IMG/VR virus record: IMGVR_UViG_3300017766_003306 | Span: 5,587 to 69,586 of that record | Origin: a virus | Lineage: Duplodnaviria; Heunggongvirae; Uroviricota; Caudoviricetes | DNA length: 64,000 nt | Direction: 5' to 3' (one strand) | Shown: one piece after another, positions 1,631 to 31,628 of the stretch | Position numbering within the stretch: position 1 is the first letter of the stretch | How the letters are laid out: the number at the start of each line of letters is the position of its first letter | Translations under genes and position numbers: made by a program | Notes under the pieces: model-generated | Told to the model about the DNA's origin: nothing | The model's database searches: none | The model's input: the letters and a program-made list of their open reading frames with translations, nothing else

Positions 1631-1882
1631 ATGGAAACTATTATCAGGTACGGAAAAGATCAGCAAACTAGAAAGTATTTTGAAACTTTAGATGAAGCTA
1701 TTAAAGAAGCGGTGTATATTTTAACGAACGAATCTACTAAACATATATACCAAGACACTAGATTAGTGACCTTTTATAGTGTTGCAGGAGGATCAGAAGG
1801 TGAGTGTATCGGGTCTTCTTTCGTAGATATTCACGGTAAACTACATAAAGTGTGTACGTTAAATATATTAAAGGTGGATTAG
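1631..1882 (+). CDS. hypothetical protein
   Basis: 83-aa ORF, AAGGAAA RBS. Confidence 0.4.
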   Translation: METIIRYGKDQQTRKYFETLDEAIKEAVYILTNESTKHIYQDTRLVTFYSVAGGSEGECIGSSFVDIHGKLHKVCTLNILKVD

Positions 1883-1883
1883 T

Positions 1884-2078
1884 ATGTTAGTTGAAGACCT
1901 TATAGAATTATTAGAAGAGTATAGGGGTTTAGAAATGCCTGTATACATCAACGGCGGAAACCCTAAACAAGTTAGAGTCGTTACAGATGTTATAGGGTTT
2001 TGTATAGAAACAGACCCTTGCAAAGAGTACATTACGGATAAAGATATTATTATTTGGGAGGATTCTGAGGATGAGTAG
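1884..2078 (+). CDS. hypothetical protein
   Basis: 64-aa ORF, GGTGGA RBS; stop overlaps ATG 2071 of next gene. Confidence 0.35.
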   Translation: MLVEDLIELLEEYRGLEMPVYINGGNPKQVRVVTDVIGFCIETDPCKEYITDKDIIIWEDSEDE

Positions 2079-2741
2079 TACACAACGCGGATATAGCCGT
2101 CATAAATCAGATTACTATGTGACCCCTGATTGGATTATTGATGAGCTATTTGATCATATTCATGAACTTTTTGAAGAACTAGACGGACGAATTGCCTTAG
2201 ACCCTTGCTCGGGGGGGGTAGCGTGAACGGTAGCTCAGTATTTTCTATGCCTTATGTTGAGGCTCTACGTCGTAACGGTTGGGAGACAGTGCATACATTA
2301 GATATTCGGCAAGACTCTTTAGCTGATATTAAGGAAGACTTCTTAACTTGGGATAACCCTGATAACATAGACTACGACTTAATAATTACAAACCCCCCGT
2401 TCTTACACGCTGAAAGCATAATCAGGAAAGCTTTAGCCTTAGTAGACTCTGAAAGTGGTAAAGTTATCATGCTACAACGGCTCAACTTCTTAGGGAGTGC
2501 AGAGAGAGACGACTTCTTCACTAAGTACCCCCCTAGTCGGATAATCGTACACGCTAAGCGTCCTTCTTTTGGGGGGATACAGCTAGAAGATGATGGGTCT
2601 ATCAACGTAACGAACAAAGGTAAGAATACTACCGATTCAATAGAGTATGCCCACTTTATTTGGGACAATACAGATAAGTCAGGAAATACGAGGTTTACTC
2701 GTATTAGGGCTGATTATTCTAAACTAAAGAAACAGAGGTAA
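2071..2741 (+). CDS. DNA methyltransferase (N6-adenine/N4-cytosine class), reading frame interrupted at a G8 homopolymer (2211-2218)
   Basis: Frame-1 ORF ATG 2071..TGA 2226 encodes MSSTQRGYSRHKSDYYVTPDWIIDELFDHIHELFEELDGRIALDPCSGGVA (AdoMet motif I-like DPCSGGG). Frame-0 ORF 2205..2741 carries catalytic motif IV (TNPPF). A 9th G would fuse both into one ~226-aa protein. Confidence 0.6.
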
Positions 2742-2743
2742 GT

Positions 2744-3037
2744 ATGCCTAAGAAAGCTAATAATTTTCAACCTTTTGAAGGAACTCATCCCCCTTATGAG
2801 ATCCCTGAAAAAAATAAACGAAACTTTGAAAAGTGGTTAAAAATATGCAGAAAGTATATGCCTGATGAGCCTATGACTTGTGAGTACGAAAAAGAAAAAG
2901 AGAGGGTGGATGAGTATTCTATTCTCTCTAATTCTTATATCGTTACTTTCGGGAGAGATAAGCTAACGTTTAAAGATGTTTTGACTTATAGAATAGGTAA
3001 CTCTAGTGTTAGCTATTATAACTGTAAACCTATTTAA
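2744..3037 (+). CDS. hypothetical protein
   Basis: 97-aa ORF immediately after MTase stop. Confidence 0.35.
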   Translation: MPKKANNFQPFEGTHPPYEIPEKNKRNFEKWLKICRKYMPDEPMTCEYEKEKERVDEYSILSNSYIVTFGRDKLTFKDVLTYRIGNSSVSYYNCKPI

Positions 3038-3083
3038 AACTTATACGATCGTATAAATACTGTATTCCGCTTTTATTCTTACT

Positions 3084-3112
3084 TGACTTTATGATTATTT
3101 TAGTCTATTATT
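3084..3112 (+). promoter_or_regulatory. sigma70-like promoter TTGACT-N17-TATTAT with upstream palindrome TATACGATCGTATA (3046-3059)
   Basis: -35 3084-3089, -10 3107-3112; ~120-nt promoter/leader cassette nearly repeated at 8200-8320. Confidence 0.55.
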
Positions 3113-21474: not shown

Positions 21475-23598
21475 TTATCCTTTTATACATAATACTTGTT
21501 TTAACTTTGCGACGATTTCTACTAAGTCTTCTTGGGATCTCATCACATCTTCAATGTTTTTATACGCTGAAGGGGTCTCGTCTAGTATCTGTAAATCTGC
21601 TTTTCTACACTCAACCCCTTGAGTATCTAATGCGTGTTGCTCTAAAGAGACGAGCTTCTTTGCTTGTGTTCTACTCATTACTCTTCCTGCTCCATGCGAG
21701 CATGAACAAAAAGATTCCTCGTTACCTAGACCACGCACGATGTAAGAAGCGTTCCCCATATTTGAGGGGATAATGCCCAACTTATCTTTTTCAGCATTCA
21801 CAGCCCCTTTACGAGTCACATAGACATCTTTTCCGTAGTGTCGTTCTCTACTGACATAATTATGGTGGCAATCTACAAGCTCTACTTCTCTCGTAAACGT
21901 CAATGTAGCATCTCTCAGCTTTACTAAAACACGTCGCATCATTATGTTTCTATTCATCTGAGCATACTTCTGACACCAATCTAATGATCTTATGTATTCA
22001 TCAAAATAATTACTTTCTTCTGTGAGATAAGCTAAGTCTCTATCTACTAAAGTTATTCCCAATTGTTCCATATCTTCTTTAGCTTTGCTTATGTAGTAAG
22101 TACCTACACGATTTCCTATTCCTCTACTCCCTGAGTGCAACATAACCCAAACACATTGCTCTTCATCAATACAGATCTCTATGAAGTGATTACCTCCCCC
22201 AAGAGTCCCTAATTGCTTATAAACAGCATTGTGCGTTATGCCTGATTTTTCTTCTATGTACTCGTACCCTGATTTTAAATATAAGTTAAATTGATTAGAC
22301 ACTTTATCTTCTACTTCATCATGCTTACCGAACCCTACAGGTATAACCGATTCTAGGTCTAATCGTAGTTTTGATAAGTCATTGGGTAGATCAGAAGCCT
22401 TTAAACTCGTCTTTACCGCCTGCATTCCGCAGTTACCTGTAATAAACACATTCCCTGCACGTCTAGCTACAAAAAACCCCGAAGGGACAGTGAAACAGTA
22501 CTCTAAGCCATCAGAAGAAGGGACGAAAGTCATAGAAGTTTTAGGAGTTCCGCATATCCCTACTTTAACATCAGTATTTTTAAAAACTCTATAGTCTACT
22601 CCACTATCTCTATGGTCTATTTTCAAGTAGCTTCTATATCCTAAAGCAGACATCGCATACTGAACAAAATCCGCAGATTCTTTGTTTCTAGTGAAGTATA
22701 CTTGGTCTTTCATGTTTCCATCCCAATACATAATCTCATCTACTATTACTTTTAACTGGTCTATAGAAGCTTCCCAATAATTTAATACTTTATTAGTTGT
22801 AGGAGACGCAAACGAGAACTCAGTCACCTCTTCTTGTGTTGATATGTTGTACTCGCTGTAAGTTATCCCTGCATTACACAATAGCTCTCTGATTCTGACT
22901 TTCTTTCCGTCTTTCTTTACTCGCACTACGGCTCTTTTTGTGTTTTCATTTCGTATACACCCGTCCGCAGATACCATAACCGCTACTCTAAGCTGTGCGT
23001 CGGTCATTTCTTCAATCTTAGTAGTGATAGTAGGCGTAAAGCAGGTTAGAAATCTCCCCCTAAACCCTAAAACTAACTCTGAATGCTTCTCATATAGCTC
23101 TTGTGCAGATATACACGCATACTTAGAAAACTTATAAGACCTATCGTGCTTGTAGTATAGAACTTTATGGTCAGGACTTAGCATTTGGTCTACGCCGTAT
23201 TTTGTTCGTACATGATAAAATCCGCTAGAAGGTTTCTTTATATATCTTGTAGGGGTAACGTAGCTAGCTAGCCCTGTATCAGGAGAAAACTGCATCACTT
23301 TGGAGCCTGAATACTCAGACATTTTAACCCACCCGTTAGGAGATAGAAACTCTGTGTCTTTATCTAGGCAACCTATGTCAACCCCAACAGAAGCAGGAAT
23401 AATAGCCTTGTCAGTAGCAATAACACTCCCAACACACGCCCCTTTGCCCAAGTGGCTGTCAGGCATCGCAGAGACCCATTTATGTATGAAAGGCATATCT
23501 GCTAAGTTCTTGAGTTGTTGTAGTGCTTGATCTTCTAAAGGAACATAATCTATCCAAGCTTTGATAAGATTTCCTCTATCTGTTTTAATTAGTTTCAT
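21475..23598 (-). CDS. rtcB: RtcB RNA 3'-phosphate ligase containing an intein
   Basis: Extein motifs GGGNHFIEI, HSGSRGIG, CHHNY, SHGAGR. A 313-aa insertion (C77..N389) sits in the conserved VGVDIG|CGM site. Confidence 0.85.
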   Translation of the reverse strand: MKLIKTDRGNLIKAWIDYVPLEDQALQQLKNLADMPFIHKWVSAMPDSHLGKGACVGSVIATDKAIIPASVGVDIGCLDKDTEFLSPNGWVKMSEYSGSKVMQFSPDTGLASYVTPTRYIKKPSSGFYHVRTKYGVDQMLSPDHKVLYYKHDRSYKFSKYACISAQELYEKHSELVLGFRGRFLTCFTPTITTKIEEMTDAQLRVAVMVSADGCIRNENTKRAVVRVKKDGKKVRIRELLCNAGITYSEYNISTQEEVTEFSFASPTTNKVLNYWEASIDQLKVIVDEIMYWDGNMKDQVYFTRNKESADFVQYAMSALGYRSYLKIDHRDSGVDYRVFKNTDVKVGICGTPKTSMTFVPSSDGLEYCFTVPSGFFVARRAGNVFITGNCGMQAVKTSLKASDLPNDLSKLRLDLESVIPVGFGKHDEVEDKVSNQFNLYLKSGYEYIEEKSGITHNAVYKQLGTLGGGNHFIEICIDEEQCVWVMLHSGSRGIGNRVGTYYISKAKEDMEQLGITLVDRDLAYLTEESNYFDEYIRSLDWCQKYAQMNRNIMMRRVLVKLRDATLTFTREVELVDCHHNYVSRERHYGKDVYVTRKGAVNAEKDKLGIIPSNMGNASYIVRGLGNEESFCSCSHGAGRVMSRTQAKKLVSLEQHALDTQGVECRKADLQILDETPSAYKNIEDVMRSQEDLVEIVAKLKQVLCIKG
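22432..23370 (-). mobile_element. intein (313 aa) with LAGLIDADG-type homing endonuclease motifs, inserted at the RtcB catalytic Cys
   Basis: Starts CLDKDTEFL (block A-like), ends ...VFITGN followed by +1 Cys of CGM; internal LRVAVMVSADGC and LKVIVDEIMYWDGN resemble LAGLIDADG motifs. Confidence 0.7.
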
Positions 23599-30615: not shown

Positions 30616-30689
30616 TGCCCCGTACAAGACTCGAACTTGTGACGTTCCGCTTAGAAGGCGGATATTCTATCCATCTGAATTAACGAGGC
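30616..30689 (-). tRNA. tRNA-Arg (anticodon TCT)
   Basis: Cloverleaf GCCTCGT/ACGGGGC acceptor, anticodon loop CTTCTAA, T-loop TTCGAGT. Confidence 0.8.
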
Positions 30690-30703
30690 GTAAAAATAAA
30701 AAA

Positions 30704-30776
30704 TGCCCAAGACAGGATTTGAACCTGTGCATTTCTTGCTTACAAGGCAAGTGCCTTACCGCTTGGCTACTTGGGC
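30704..30776 (-). tRNA. tRNA-Thr (anticodon TGT)
   Basis: Acceptor GCCCAAG/CTTGGGC, anticodon loop CTTGTAA, T-loop TTCAAAT. Confidence 0.8.
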
Positions 30777-30781
30777 AAAAA

Positions 30782-30854
30782 CGCCTTCACCGAGATTTGA
30801 ACTCGGGTTACTACCGTGACAAGGTAGCGTCCTAGACCACTAGACGACAAAGGC
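30782..30854 (-). tRNA. tRNA-Asp (anticodon GTC)
   Basis: Anticodon stem CTACC/GGTAG, loop TTGTCAC, T-arm CCGAG-TTCAAAT-CTCGG; acceptor has two G-U pairs. Confidence 0.7.
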
Positions 30855-31064
30855 ATAAAAGGTGCTAGTTTCAGTTGACTCAGCCACTAGCAAACACGTC
30901 AGGTTTTACATCTATGAAGACGAGAGCCTATGTCCGCTCTAAGACACTCAGCACCCTAAGTCGAATGTTATCTGAGATTTTGTTTGACTCACTTACAAGT
31001 TACAATAAGTGAGTAGCTGAGCGTAATTGAAATCGGGATCGCCAACAACAATATGCCCTAAGTA

Positions 31065-31136
31065 TTGCACTACCTAGAATCGAACTAGGGCATGGGTGAA
31101 TATGAGCCACCTGCTTTACCTCTTAGCTATAGTGCA
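31065..31136 (-). tRNA. tRNA-Met (anticodon CAT; Met or lysidine-Ile cannot be distinguished)
   Basis: Acceptor TGCACTA/TAGTGCA, anticodon loop CTCATAT, T-arm CCTAG-TTCGATT-CTAGG. Confidence 0.65.
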
Positions 31137-31146
31137 GTATAAAAAA

Positions 31147-31228
31147 TGCGTAGGGTTAGATTTGAACTAACGTATCACTAGGAGTCAGATTTACAGTCTG
31201 ATGTCTTTAACCACTCGACCACCTACGC
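31147..31228 (-). tRNA. tRNA-Tyr (anticodon GTA), long variable arm
   Basis: Acceptor GCGTAGG/CCTACGC, anticodon loop CTGTAAA. Confidence 0.8.
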
Positions 31229-31243
31229 ATATTTTAAAAAAAT

Positions 31244-31332
31244 CGGGTAGTGTAGGATTTGAACCTACGGAGGTTTTTACACCTCGCTAGTTTTCAAGAC
31301 TAGAGCCATAAACCGAACTCGACCAACTACCC
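31244..31332 (-). tRNA. tRNA-Ser (anticodon TGA), long variable arm
   Basis: Acceptor GGGTAGT/ACTACCC, anticodon loop CTTGAAA, variable arm GAGGTGTAAAAACCTCC. Confidence 0.8.
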
Positions 31333-31353
31333 ATCAAAGCAAACTTATTAAAC

Positions 31354-31500
31354 GTTCTACTTATCGGGGTACTTTCAGTTTTTATCCTTTCCGAGCCACA
31401 GATTAAATAAATACAACAAGAACACATTGCTCAGACTCCTTCAGTAGCGACACTGACCCCCTCCTCGCGGTTTTTCTCTCAGTACCCCGATAAGTAGAAC
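31354..31500. repeat. 20-bp perfect inverted repeat (GTTCTACTTATCGGGGTACT) flanking a 107-nt segment inside the tRNA cluster
   Basis: arm1 31354-31373, arm2 31481-31500 exact reverse complement. Confidence 0.85.
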
Positions 31501-31537
31501 TATTTTTATTTTCAAAGAACGAATAATTAAGTAAGTA

Positions 31538-31611
31538 TGCTTCGTACAAGACTCGAACTTGTGACCCGCTCCTTATGAGGAAGATGCTCTAACCAACTGA
31601 GCTAACGAAGC
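31538..31611 (-). tRNA. tRNA-Met/Ile2-like (anticodon CAT)
   Basis: GCTTCGTTAGCTCAGTTGGTTAGAGC... acceptor GCTTCGT/ACGAAGC, anticodon loop CTCATAA, T-loop TTCGAGT. Confidence 0.75.
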
Positions 31612-31628
31612 ACTTACTTATTGTATGC

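What the first reader, a model, noticed from the sequence alone, without database searches (positions are those of the whole stretch)
2071..2741. DNA methyltransferase gene broken by a G8 homopolymer: candidate phase-variable or recoded MTase
A 51-codon ORF carrying the AdoMet-binding motif ends 9 nt after a run of eight G (2211-2218). The downstream frame carries the NPPF catalytic motif. Nine G would give one continuous ~226-aa methyltransferase. Poly-G tracts of this length are classic slipped-strand phase-variation switches and also sites of +1 ribosomal frameshifting. A homopolymer sequencing error is the trivial alternative.
Basis: seen in the sequence. Interest (0 to 1): 0.55.

Follow-up and report, generated by a model that had tools for sequence, protein, structure and literature searches.

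The report
Phage methyltransferase gene switched off at poly-G
A phage DNA methyltransferase gene is split by a one-base shortfall in a run of eight G, and related phages carry runs of different length at the same codons, some in frame and some not, so this is most likely a natural slippage-prone on/off site, a known kind of switch, caught here in the off state.

Summary
G8 lies at 2211-2218. A 51-codon ORF (2071-2226) ends 9 nt after it. The other frame runs open to 2741. Adding one G gives a 223-aa protein that matches PHROG 799 (DNA methyltransferase, E=1e-43) without a break across the junction and folds confidently as a class I SAM methyltransferase.

The same G8 appears in three assemblies from three sources (Logan, ENA, JGI). 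No G9 version was found among 5.8 billion protein clusters.

The main new result is comparative. The run encodes the Gly-Gly-Gly of the AdoMet-binding loop. Most relatives use mixed GGN codons there and are intact. Four separate branches carry poly-G at exactly these codons:
- this window: G8, out of frame
- L001: G8, in frame
- L037: G11, out of frame
- a third lineage: G7 in frame in at least six contigs, G8 out of frame in four, and one in-frame allele otherwise identical over 560 nt

Recoding is not supported. The window needs a -1 shift, not +1. No stimulatory RNA structure was found, and the broken relatives need shifts in different directions.

Best reading: a real off allele at a slipped-strand indel hotspot. 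Switching rate and any adaptive value are untested. This is a new member of a known kind, of moderate interest.

The parts
2071..2741 (+). Whole interrupted orphan DNA methyltransferase gene. It would encode 223 aa if the run were G9.
   Evidence: The joined translation matches PHROG 799 'DNA methyltransferase' at E=1.2e-43 over residues 1-203. AF2 model: pLDDT 85.9, pTM 0.85. Foldseek finds class I SAM methyltransferases, including adenine DNA methyltransferases M.BseCI, PacII, BsaXI and EcoKI M. Relatives at 65-73% identity are intact proteins of 200-210 aa, mostly 207.
2071..2226 (+). ORF-A: N-terminal 51 codons carrying the AdoMet-binding motif I (LDPCSGG), ended early by TGA at 2224-2226.
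   Evidence: PHROG 799 E=9.6e-9 on its own. L43, D44, P45, G48 and G49 are invariant or nearly invariant in the 43-sequence family alignment.
2211..2218 (+). G8 homopolymer. It comprises the last base of TCG (Ser) plus the codons for the Gly-Gly-Gly of motif I, one G short of the in-frame length (G9).
   Evidence: It is the only G or C run of 8 or more in the window. The homologous codons carry G8 in frame in L001, G11 out of frame in L037, and G7 in frame or G8 out of frame in lineage 3.
2223..2741 (+). ORF-B: the C-terminal 172 codons as called from GTG 2223. The frame is open from TTG 2205. It holds the rest of the methyltransferase fold.
   Evidence: PHROG 799 E=5e-32. The same 172-aa product (P0001/P0121) was called in three assemblies. 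The GTG start overlaps the ORF-A stop (GTGA).
2391..2402 (+). Motif IV, the catalytic NPPF (AAC CCC CCG TTC), which itself contains a C6 run.
   Evidence: N108, P109, P110 and F111 are invariant in alignment A1. The C6 run is listed.

Best explanation
This is a genuine orphan, phage-encoded amino-methyltransferase gene. It is most likely an N6-adenine DNA methyltransferase, with motif I ahead of NPPF. In the sequenced population the genome carries it in an OFF configuration, because the poly-G run encoding the Gly-Gly-Gly of the AdoMet-binding loop is one G short (G8 instead of G9).

The run is a slipped-strand mispairing hotspot. During phage DNA replication the nascent and template strands can misalign within the run, adding or removing a G. 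This toggles the frame between a full-length enzyme and a 51-aa stub. Phage lysates would then hold a mixture of methylating and non-methylating genomes.

Shown here:
- the gene's identity
- the break at the run
- agreement of three assemblies on G8
- recurrent length polymorphism at the same codons in other branches of the family, with both frames represented

Inferred:
- that the change arises by replication slippage and is reversible at high frequency in this phage
- that the mixture is useful, for example protection from host restriction when ON and avoidance of methylation-dependent restriction or methylation cost when OFF
For: 1. Gene identity and a single break are established. All 25 invariant and 30 nearly invariant family positions are retained in the joined protein. 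ORF-B stays open for 172 or more codons in a 38% GC genome, so there is no further decay.
2. G8 is identical in Logan SRR10520205 (101-kb contig), ENA ERZ27247881 (k141 contig) and JGI 3300005662. No 223-aa version exists among 5.8 billion clusters.
3. The same codons carry poly-G in other branches.
   - L001 reads GCA+G8 and is in frame.
   - L037 reads GCT+G11 and is out of frame, giving 52 aa plus 159/165 aa.
   - Lineage 3 reads GCT+G8 and is out of frame in four JGI contigs from 3300036940, 3300035102 and 3300043112.
   - Lineage 3 also reads GCT+G7 and is in frame in contigs from 3300043118, 3300043039, ERZ27245808, ERZ27247962 and SRR34871448.
   - The G7 allele L152 differs from the G8 alleles at 0 of 560 other positions. 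L062 differs by 2 synonymous and 0 non-synonymous changes.
4. L001 is 89-91% identical to L002, L017 and L018, which use GGC GGT GGC. The tracts therefore lie on separate branches.
5. Among distinct alleles, 3 of 7 with a G run of 7 or more in the first 210 nt are frame-broken, against 1 of about 95-100 without such a run (Fisher p=8e-4, but see the bias noted under evidence against).
6. Tract lengths of 7-11 G match known phase-variable tracts. C. jejuni tracts have a modal length of 9 (PMC3401435 abstract). Fletchervirus receptor-binding genes carry 7-11 G, and T2/T4 contingency loci are described in bioRxiv 10.1101/2025.10.21.683753.
Against: - Only G8 was seen in this phage's own lineage. 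All copies are 100% identical and may come from overlapping read sets, so no length heterogeneity is shown for this tract.
- Consensus assemblies say nothing about switching rate.
- GGG is the commonest Gly codon here (31%). About one GGG-GGG pair among the window's 10 Gly triples is expected by chance, so nothing shows selection for the tract.
- The same gene family also decays in ordinary ways: TT to T in L021, an internal deletion in P0124, and replacement by another methyltransferase in L013. The methyltransferase is therefore often dispensable, and an OFF allele could simply be loss.
- The enrichment statistic is biased by how the window and L037 were found. Without them, p=0.10.
Confidence: 0.6

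Rival explanations
1. Ordinary gene loss. The G9-to-G8 deletion is a real but non-adaptive inactivating mutation in a dispensable accessory gene. The poly-G run is just the most mutable spot, and the gene is on its way to decay.
For: Relatives show other inactivations: a TT-to-T frameshift before NPPF in L021, an out-of-frame internal deletion in P0124, and replacement leaving a 42-aa remnant in L013. Only the OFF state is seen in this lineage. Tract formation is compatible with codon usage alone.
Against: There is no second lesion. All invariant residues are kept and 172 codons stay open. In lineage 3, ON and OFF alleles coexist across samples with identical coding sequence, which fits recent or recurrent switching better than one-way decay. 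A G8 run reverts easily, so 'loss' at such a site is inherently reversible.
Confidence: 0.2
2. Sequencing or assembly artefact. The true genome has G9 and the gene is intact.
For: Homopolymers are the classic site of length miscalls. The joined protein is perfectly conserved. The three assemblies are 100% identical over 2.3-5.7 kb and could rest on the same or related read sets.
Against: Three pipelines (Logan, an ENA k141 assembly, JGI) give the same G8. No G9 product exists among 5.8 billion clusters. No other long ORF in the window is broken at its G7, C7 or T7-8 runs. In lineage 3 the G7 and G8 states are reproducible and sample-specific across about 10 contigs, so such differences are real in these data sets. 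From general knowledge, reversible-terminator sequencing rarely miscalls a G8 in the majority of reads.
Confidence: 0.1
3. Recoding. The G8 template is the normal state, and full-length enzyme is made by -1 ribosomal slippage on G_GGG_GGG (2211-2217) or by RNA-polymerase stuttering on the run.
For: G_GGG_GGG formally fits X_XXY_YYZ, and both tRNA-Gly can re-pair perfectly in the -1 frame. The zero-frame stop follows closely. A catalytic enzyme needs only a little product. OFF alleles stay intact.
Against: No downstream stimulatory structure was found (z=+1.07; 172 of 200 shuffles fold at least as well), and no upstream SD-like element is evident. About 95-100 homologous alleles are single ORFs. 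The broken ones need different shifts: window -1, L037 -1, lineage 3 +1. In-frame alleles of the same sequence exist, so the break is not a conserved design.
Confidence: 0.07
4. Split enzyme. The 51-aa and 172-aa products are both made, coupled through the GTGA overlap at 2223-2226, and they reassemble into an active methyltransferase.
For: Stop and start overlap in GTGA, and gene callers predict both ORFs.
Against: The break cuts the glycine loop of the SAM pocket between strand 1 and its helix. The other OFF alleles break at slightly different points with different restart codons. No relative is conserved as two ORFs.
Confidence: 0.03

Closest known systems
Hypermutable poly-G tracts of Campylobacter Fletchervirus phages (Sorensen et al. 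2021, Cell Rep 35:109214, as described in bioRxiv 10.1101/2025.10.21.683753)
   Same: A phage genome carries a 7-11 G run inside an ORF, and length changes switch the gene product on or off, giving mixed progeny.
   Different: Those tracts lie in receptor-binding protein genes and were shown experimentally to vary. Here the gene is a DNA methyltransferase, the phage is uncultured, and variation is shown only between related metagenomic contigs, not within this phage.
Phage contingency loci in T2 agt and T4 rIIA (Gomez, Barrick, Waters, bioRxiv 10.1101/2025.10.21.683753)
   Same: Homopolymer runs of 6 or more in phage ORFs give reversible frameshifts by polymerase slippage. One affected gene (agt) is a DNA-modification enzyme that matters for evading host defence.
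   Different: Those runs are in coliphages, with mutation frequencies measured from reads and reversion assays. Here there is a single poly-G in the SAM-binding motif and no rate measurement.
Poly-G tract in a methylase gene of Bordetella phage BPP-1 (Liu et al. 2004, as cited in bioRxiv 10.1101/2025.10.21.683753; original not held)
   Same: A poly-G run inside a phage-encoded DNA methylase gene.
   Different: It is a different methylase family and phage. I could not read the original paper, so the position and frame states cannot be compared.
Bacterial phase-variable methyltransferases: Type III mod phasevarions, C. jejuni cj0031 Type IIG poly-G (PMC4889913), N. gonorrhoeae Type I M.NgoAV (PMC9577141)
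   Same: Repeat-driven frameshifts turn a DNA methyltransferase on and off. Poly-G runs of about 8-10 are typical.
   Different: Those are chromosomal, usually part of restriction-modification systems, and act through altered host gene expression. This one is a small (223-aa) orphan phage enzyme with no adjacent nuclease recognised, and its presumed role is protecting phage DNA.
Programmed -1 frameshifting (dnaX-type: slippery heptamer plus stimulators)
   Same: A perfect homopolymeric heptamer lies at the frame junction.
   Different: No stimulator was found, the break is not conserved, and in-frame alleles exist in relatives.

Membership tests
Repeat-mediated contingency (phase-variable) locus | Homopolymer or short repeat inside the ORF, long enough to slip (G/C run of about 7 or more) | tested here: met
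   G8 at 2211-2218 lies inside the coding sequence, 47 codons from the start.
Repeat-mediated contingency (phase-variable) locus | Changing the repeat number by one unit switches between full-length and truncated product | tested here: met
   G8 gives a 51-aa stub. G9 gives a 223-aa protein with a continuous family match.
Repeat-mediated contingency (phase-variable) locus | Repeat-length polymorphism among closely related genomes or within a population | tested here: inconclusive
   In this lineage only G8 is seen, in three assemblies. In a sister lineage the feature is met: G7 and G8 alleles are otherwise identical over 560 nt. Other branches carry G8 and G11.
Repeat-mediated contingency (phase-variable) locus | High-frequency, reversible switching measured in a population | not testable with these tools
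   This needs raw reads or a cultured phage.
Programmed -1 ribosomal frameshift site | Slippery heptamer X_XXY_YYZ in the zero frame | tested here: met
   G_GGG_GGG at 2211-2217.
Programmed -1 ribosomal frameshift site | Stimulatory RNA structure downstream, or an SD-like element upstream | tested here: not met
   Folding of 2195-2320 gives z=+1.07, and 172 of 200 shuffles fold at least as well. No SD-like element is seen in the 26 nt upstream.
Programmed -1 ribosomal frameshift site | Frameshift site and two-frame arrangement conserved among homologues | tested here: not met
   About 95-100 distinct alleles are single ORFs. The three broken poly-G alleles need -1, -1 and +1.
Amino-methyltransferase of DNA (N6-adenine/N4-cytosine type, class I SAM fold) | Motif I glycine loop and motif IV (D/N/S)PP(Y/F) | tested here: met
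   LDPCSGG(G) and NPPF are present, and both are invariant or nearly so in alignment A1.
Amino-methyltransferase of DNA (N6-adenine/N4-cytosine type, class I SAM fold) | Rossmann-like SAM methyltransferase fold | tested here: met
   AF2 pLDDT 85.9, pTM 0.85. Foldseek top hits are SAM methyltransferases, including M.BseCI, PacII, BsaXI and EcoKI M, at E=1e-5 to 7e-4.
Amino-methyltransferase of DNA (N6-adenine/N4-cytosine type, class I SAM fold) | Passes a curated family threshold (Pfam or NCBIfam) | tested here: not met
   Pfam Eco57I scores 17.4 bits against a cutoff of 25.3, and MTS 12.1 against 23. NCBIfam gives only E values of 0.02 or worse. No PDB sequence hit was found for the protein, and the family profile gave only marginal hits (best E=0.002). 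Only PHROG 799 is significant.
Amino-methyltransferase of DNA (N6-adenine/N4-cytosine type, class I SAM fold) | DNA as substrate, a defined target sequence and a defined modified base | not testable with these tools
   Structural neighbours also include tRNA and rRNA methyltransferases such as TrmM and TlyA. The DNA assignment rests on PHROG and GenBank annotations of homologues.

The most novel reading that the evidence does not exclude
A family of small orphan methyltransferases in environmental phages has repeatedly evolved a poly-G run in the codons of its SAM-binding glycine loop. The phages use it as a heritable, reversible switch, so every burst contains both methylated and unmethylated genomes. 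This hedges between hosts with classical restriction-modification systems and hosts with methylation-dependent restriction. It would be a phage-side counterpart of bacterial phase-variable methyltransferases.
Probability: 0.3. Interest if true: 0.65.

Novelty: new member of a known kind. Interest (0 to 1): 0.45.

Why it matters
Phage-encoded methyltransferases are a main route around host restriction. They can also expose the phage to defences that target modified DNA. A built-in mutational toggle in such a gene would let one phage lineage keep both options open.

Contingency loci in phages have only recently been proposed, for T-even phages and for Campylobacter phage receptor-binding genes. 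This finding extends the idea to an anti-restriction enzyme in uncultured phages, which are possibly freshwater phages of Bacteroidota (a weak inference). The comparative data give a concrete and testable set of natural ON and OFF alleles.

For annotation, it is a reminder that a split methyltransferase at a G run should be flagged as a possible phase-variable gene. It should not be silently repaired or labelled a pseudogene.

Tried and rejected
- **Nucleotide search for the phage.** Megablast of 1800-3100, 1-25000 and 25001-50000 against 50,697 phage records found no relative, only a tRNA-Ser match. No close cultured phage is available.
- **Curated family and structure searches.** Pfam, NCBIfam and PDB sequence searches gave only sub-threshold or irrelevant hits. 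Classification rests on PHROG 799, the motifs and the predicted fold.
- **Search with the N-terminal stub.** A protein-database search with the 51-aa stub, meant to count other N-terminal fragments, returned only itself. One of three searches was wasted.
- **Metagenome scan.** It returned no near-identical copy of this phage, so G-length variation in this lineage could not be tested.
- **Other IMG/VR pattern hits.** Most hits to GAYCCNTGYNNN+G8 are chance. Their upstream frames are closed and they are not this family.
- **Recoding and sequencing error.** Both were considered and given low weight, for the reasons in the rival explanations.
- **Selection for the tract.** This was rejected as unproven. 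Codon usage alone predicts about one GGG-GGG among the window's ten Gly triples.
- **Original BPP-1 paper.** Liu et al. 2004 is not held in the library.

Full report
**1. The observation**

The window reads ...GAC CCT TGC TCG GGG GGG GTA GCG TGA... G8 lies at 2211-2218.
- ORF-A (2071-2226, 51 aa) ends LDPCSGGVA*.
- The frame one base back is open from 2205 to 2741 and contains NPPF at 2391-2402.
- One more G would give TCG GGG GGG GGT AGC GTG AAC, that is ...DPCSGGGSVNG..., and a 223-aa protein.
- A ribosome would have to slip -1, not +1, to achieve the same.

G8 is the only G or C run of 8 or more in the 64 kb, which is 38% GC. Such a run is not improbable on its own. The expected count is 0.13, and 10 of 100 shuffles hold at least one.

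**2. What the gene is**

The joined protein matches PHROG 799 (DNA methyltransferase) at E=1.2e-43 over residues 1-203. The match runs straight through the junction, and each half also matches alone.

tblastn finds 485 phage records, all below 60% identity (best about 41%). The 40 listed match as single pieces, and many are annotated as DNA methyltransferase.

Curated libraries do not place the protein. Pfam Eco57I scores 17.4 bits against a cutoff of 25.3, NCBIfam gives only weak hits, and there is no PDB sequence match.

A 43-sequence alignment shows motif I (L43 D44 P45 G48 G49) and motif IV (N108 P109 P110 F111) as invariant or nearly so. The window's protein keeps every invariant position.

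The AF2 model is confident (pLDDT 85.9, pTM 0.85). Its nearest solved folds are class I SAM methyltransferases. They include adenine DNA methyltransferases (M.BseCI, PacII, BsaXI, EcoKI M) and tRNA m6A enzymes.

It is therefore a small amino-methyltransferase with motif I ahead of NPPF. No nuclease was recognised among its neighbours, which are small ORFs of unknown function.

The surrounding genome looks like a myovirus of roughly 100 kb. It carries a tail sheath, portal, primase, helicase, RtcB and seven tRNAs.

**3. Is G8 real?**

The same two ORFs (51 aa and 172 aa) and the same G8 occur in three assemblies. These are a 101-kb Logan contig (SRR10520205), an ENA k141 contig (ERZ27247881) and a JGI contig (3300005662). 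All are 100% identical to the window.

The protein collection also records the 172-aa product on a 99,915-bp JGI contig. No 223-aa version exists among 5.8 billion clusters.

Other long ORFs in the window are not interrupted at their G7, C7 or T7-8 runs.

An artefact is therefore unlikely. It cannot be excluded, because the assemblies may share reads and I could not see the reads.

**4. Comparative evidence**

Relatives at 65-73% identity are intact proteins of 200-210 aa, mostly 207. Nearly all write the three glycines with mixed codons, such as GGC GGT GGC or GGT GGC GGT.

Four separate branches instead have poly-G at exactly these codons:

| Branch | Sequence at the site | Frame state |
|---|---|---|
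| Window | TCG+G7 (G8) | out of frame |
| L001 | GCA+G8 | in frame |
| L037 (Logan SRR32678484, 62-69% identical) | GCT+G11 | out of frame: 52 aa plus a 159/165-aa remainder |
| Lineage 3 (about 50% identical, motif DPCAGGD) | GCT+G8 | out of frame, four JGI contigs from three listed samples |
| Lineage 3 | GCT+G7 | in frame, contigs from at least five other samples |

- L001 is 89-91% identical to L002, L017 and L018, which lack the run. The tracts therefore sit on separate branches.
- One in-frame lineage 3 allele (L152) is identical to the out-of-frame alleles at all 560 other positions compared.
- Another in-frame allele (L062) differs from them by two synonymous changes only.

Natural ON and OFF alleles that differ only in the number of G therefore exist in this family at this site.

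Counting distinct alleles, 3 of 7 with a G run of 7 or more near the 5' end are broken, against 1 of about 95-100 without one. The nominal p is 8e-4. It weakens to 0.10 if the two alleles found because they were broken are removed.

**5. Mechanism**

The simplest account is replication slippage in the run, giving gains or losses of one G (two in L037) that toggle the reading frame. The tract lengths seen (7-11) match those of established phase-variable tracts:
- A modal length of 9 in C. jejuni (PMC3401435 abstract).
- Runs of 7-11 G in Fletchervirus receptor-binding genes.
- Measured slippage in T2/T4 contingency loci (bioRxiv 10.1101/2025.10.21.683753). The same preprint notes a poly-G tract in a methylase gene of Bordetella phage BPP-1.

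Reversibility, rate and adaptive value in this phage are inferred, not shown.

**6. Rivals**

*Recoding.* G_GGG_GGG is formally a perfect slippery heptamer. Against recoding:
- The downstream RNA folds no better than shuffles (z=+1.07).
- The two-frame arrangement is not conserved.
- The broken alleles need shifts in different directions.
- In-frame versions of the same sequence exist.

Low-level spontaneous slippage may still leak some enzyme.

*Plain decay.* The family is also inactivated in ordinary ways: TT to T in L021, an internal deletion in P0124, and replacement by a different SPPY-type methyltransferase in L013. GGG is the commonest Gly codon here (31%), so the tract needs no selection to arise. 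Against one-way decay, there is no second lesion, and ON and OFF alleles with identical coding sequence coexist in lineage 3.

*Split enzyme.* This is unlikely, because the break cuts the SAM-binding loop.

**7. Verdict**

The recoding idea has the wrong direction and no support.

This is a new member of a known kind: a repeat-driven on/off switch in a methyltransferase, and a homopolymer contingency locus in a phage.

Its moderate interest comes from three points:
- The poly-G recurs in the cofactor-binding motif across several phage lineages.
- Natural ON and OFF alleles are available for testing.
- The raw-read test is straightforward and would be decisive.

Noticed in passing
window 2071-2741: The methyltransferase gene holds 4 of the window's 21 G or C runs of 6 or more: G8 at 2211, C6 at 2393 (inside NPPF), C6 at 2528 (YPP) and G6 at 2571 (FGG). 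About 0.22 are expected for its length (Poisson p about 8e-5). Relatives L017 and L018 have C7 at the YPP site. These could be further slippage sites in the same gene.
   Followed up: partly
window 2575-2625 (residues about 169-185 of the joined protein): The window's protein has a roughly 16-aa insertion (IQLEDDGSINVTNKGKN) relative to the 207-aa relatives, which read GGTSSTDS there. It lies in a loop modelled with lower confidence.
   Followed up: no
L013 5001-5800 (IMGVR_UViG_3300032283_000637): A relative keeps only the first 40-42 codons of this methyltransferase (88% identical). A different methyltransferase with an SPPY motif follows in another frame. The locus appears to be a swap point for methyltransferase cassettes.
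   Followed up: partly
L021 1590-1625 (Ga0209668_10077305), and protein P0124: There are independent inactivations of the same gene family. L021 has a TT-to-T frameshift just before NPPF. P0124 is a 101-aa product in which the N-terminus is fused out of frame to the 3' region by an internal deletion.
   Followed up: partly
L046 8534-8553, L051 1791-1810, L052 7250-7269 (IMG/VR contigs, minus/minus/plus strand): Three related viral contigs from another phage group carry GTTGACCCTTGC followed by G11, G12 and G11, just upstream of an ORF beginning GATEIIAQARAGLS... This is another length-variable poly-G, unrelated to the methyltransferase.
   Followed up: no
L118 1560-1567 and L119 1559-1567 (Melainabacteria and Gastranaerophilales MAGs): Distant family members (28-30% identical) have in-frame G8 and G9 runs about 10 codons upstream of motif I, encoding EGGV and RGGV.
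   Followed up: partly
window 21475-23598 (- strand): A 707-aa ORF combines a PhoH-like ATPase match (residues 72-401) with an RtcB tRNA-ligase match (residues 390-707). This is an unusual fusion or insertion, and it lies near a tRNA cluster.
   Followed up: no
window 30616-31612 (- strand): A cluster of seven tRNA genes: Arg-TCT, Thr-TGT, Asp-GTC, Met-CAT (twice), Tyr-GTA and Ser-TGA. There is no tRNA-Gly.
   Followed up: no
L065 (Bacteroidota MAG contig JBKDBI010000254.1) and L100 (Chitinophagaceae MAG): The closest genome-collection relative of the methyltransferase (71% identical) sits on a 44-kb contig binned with a Bacteroidota MAG. This is a weak hint at the host group, and the window's 38% GC is compatible with it.
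   Followed up: no
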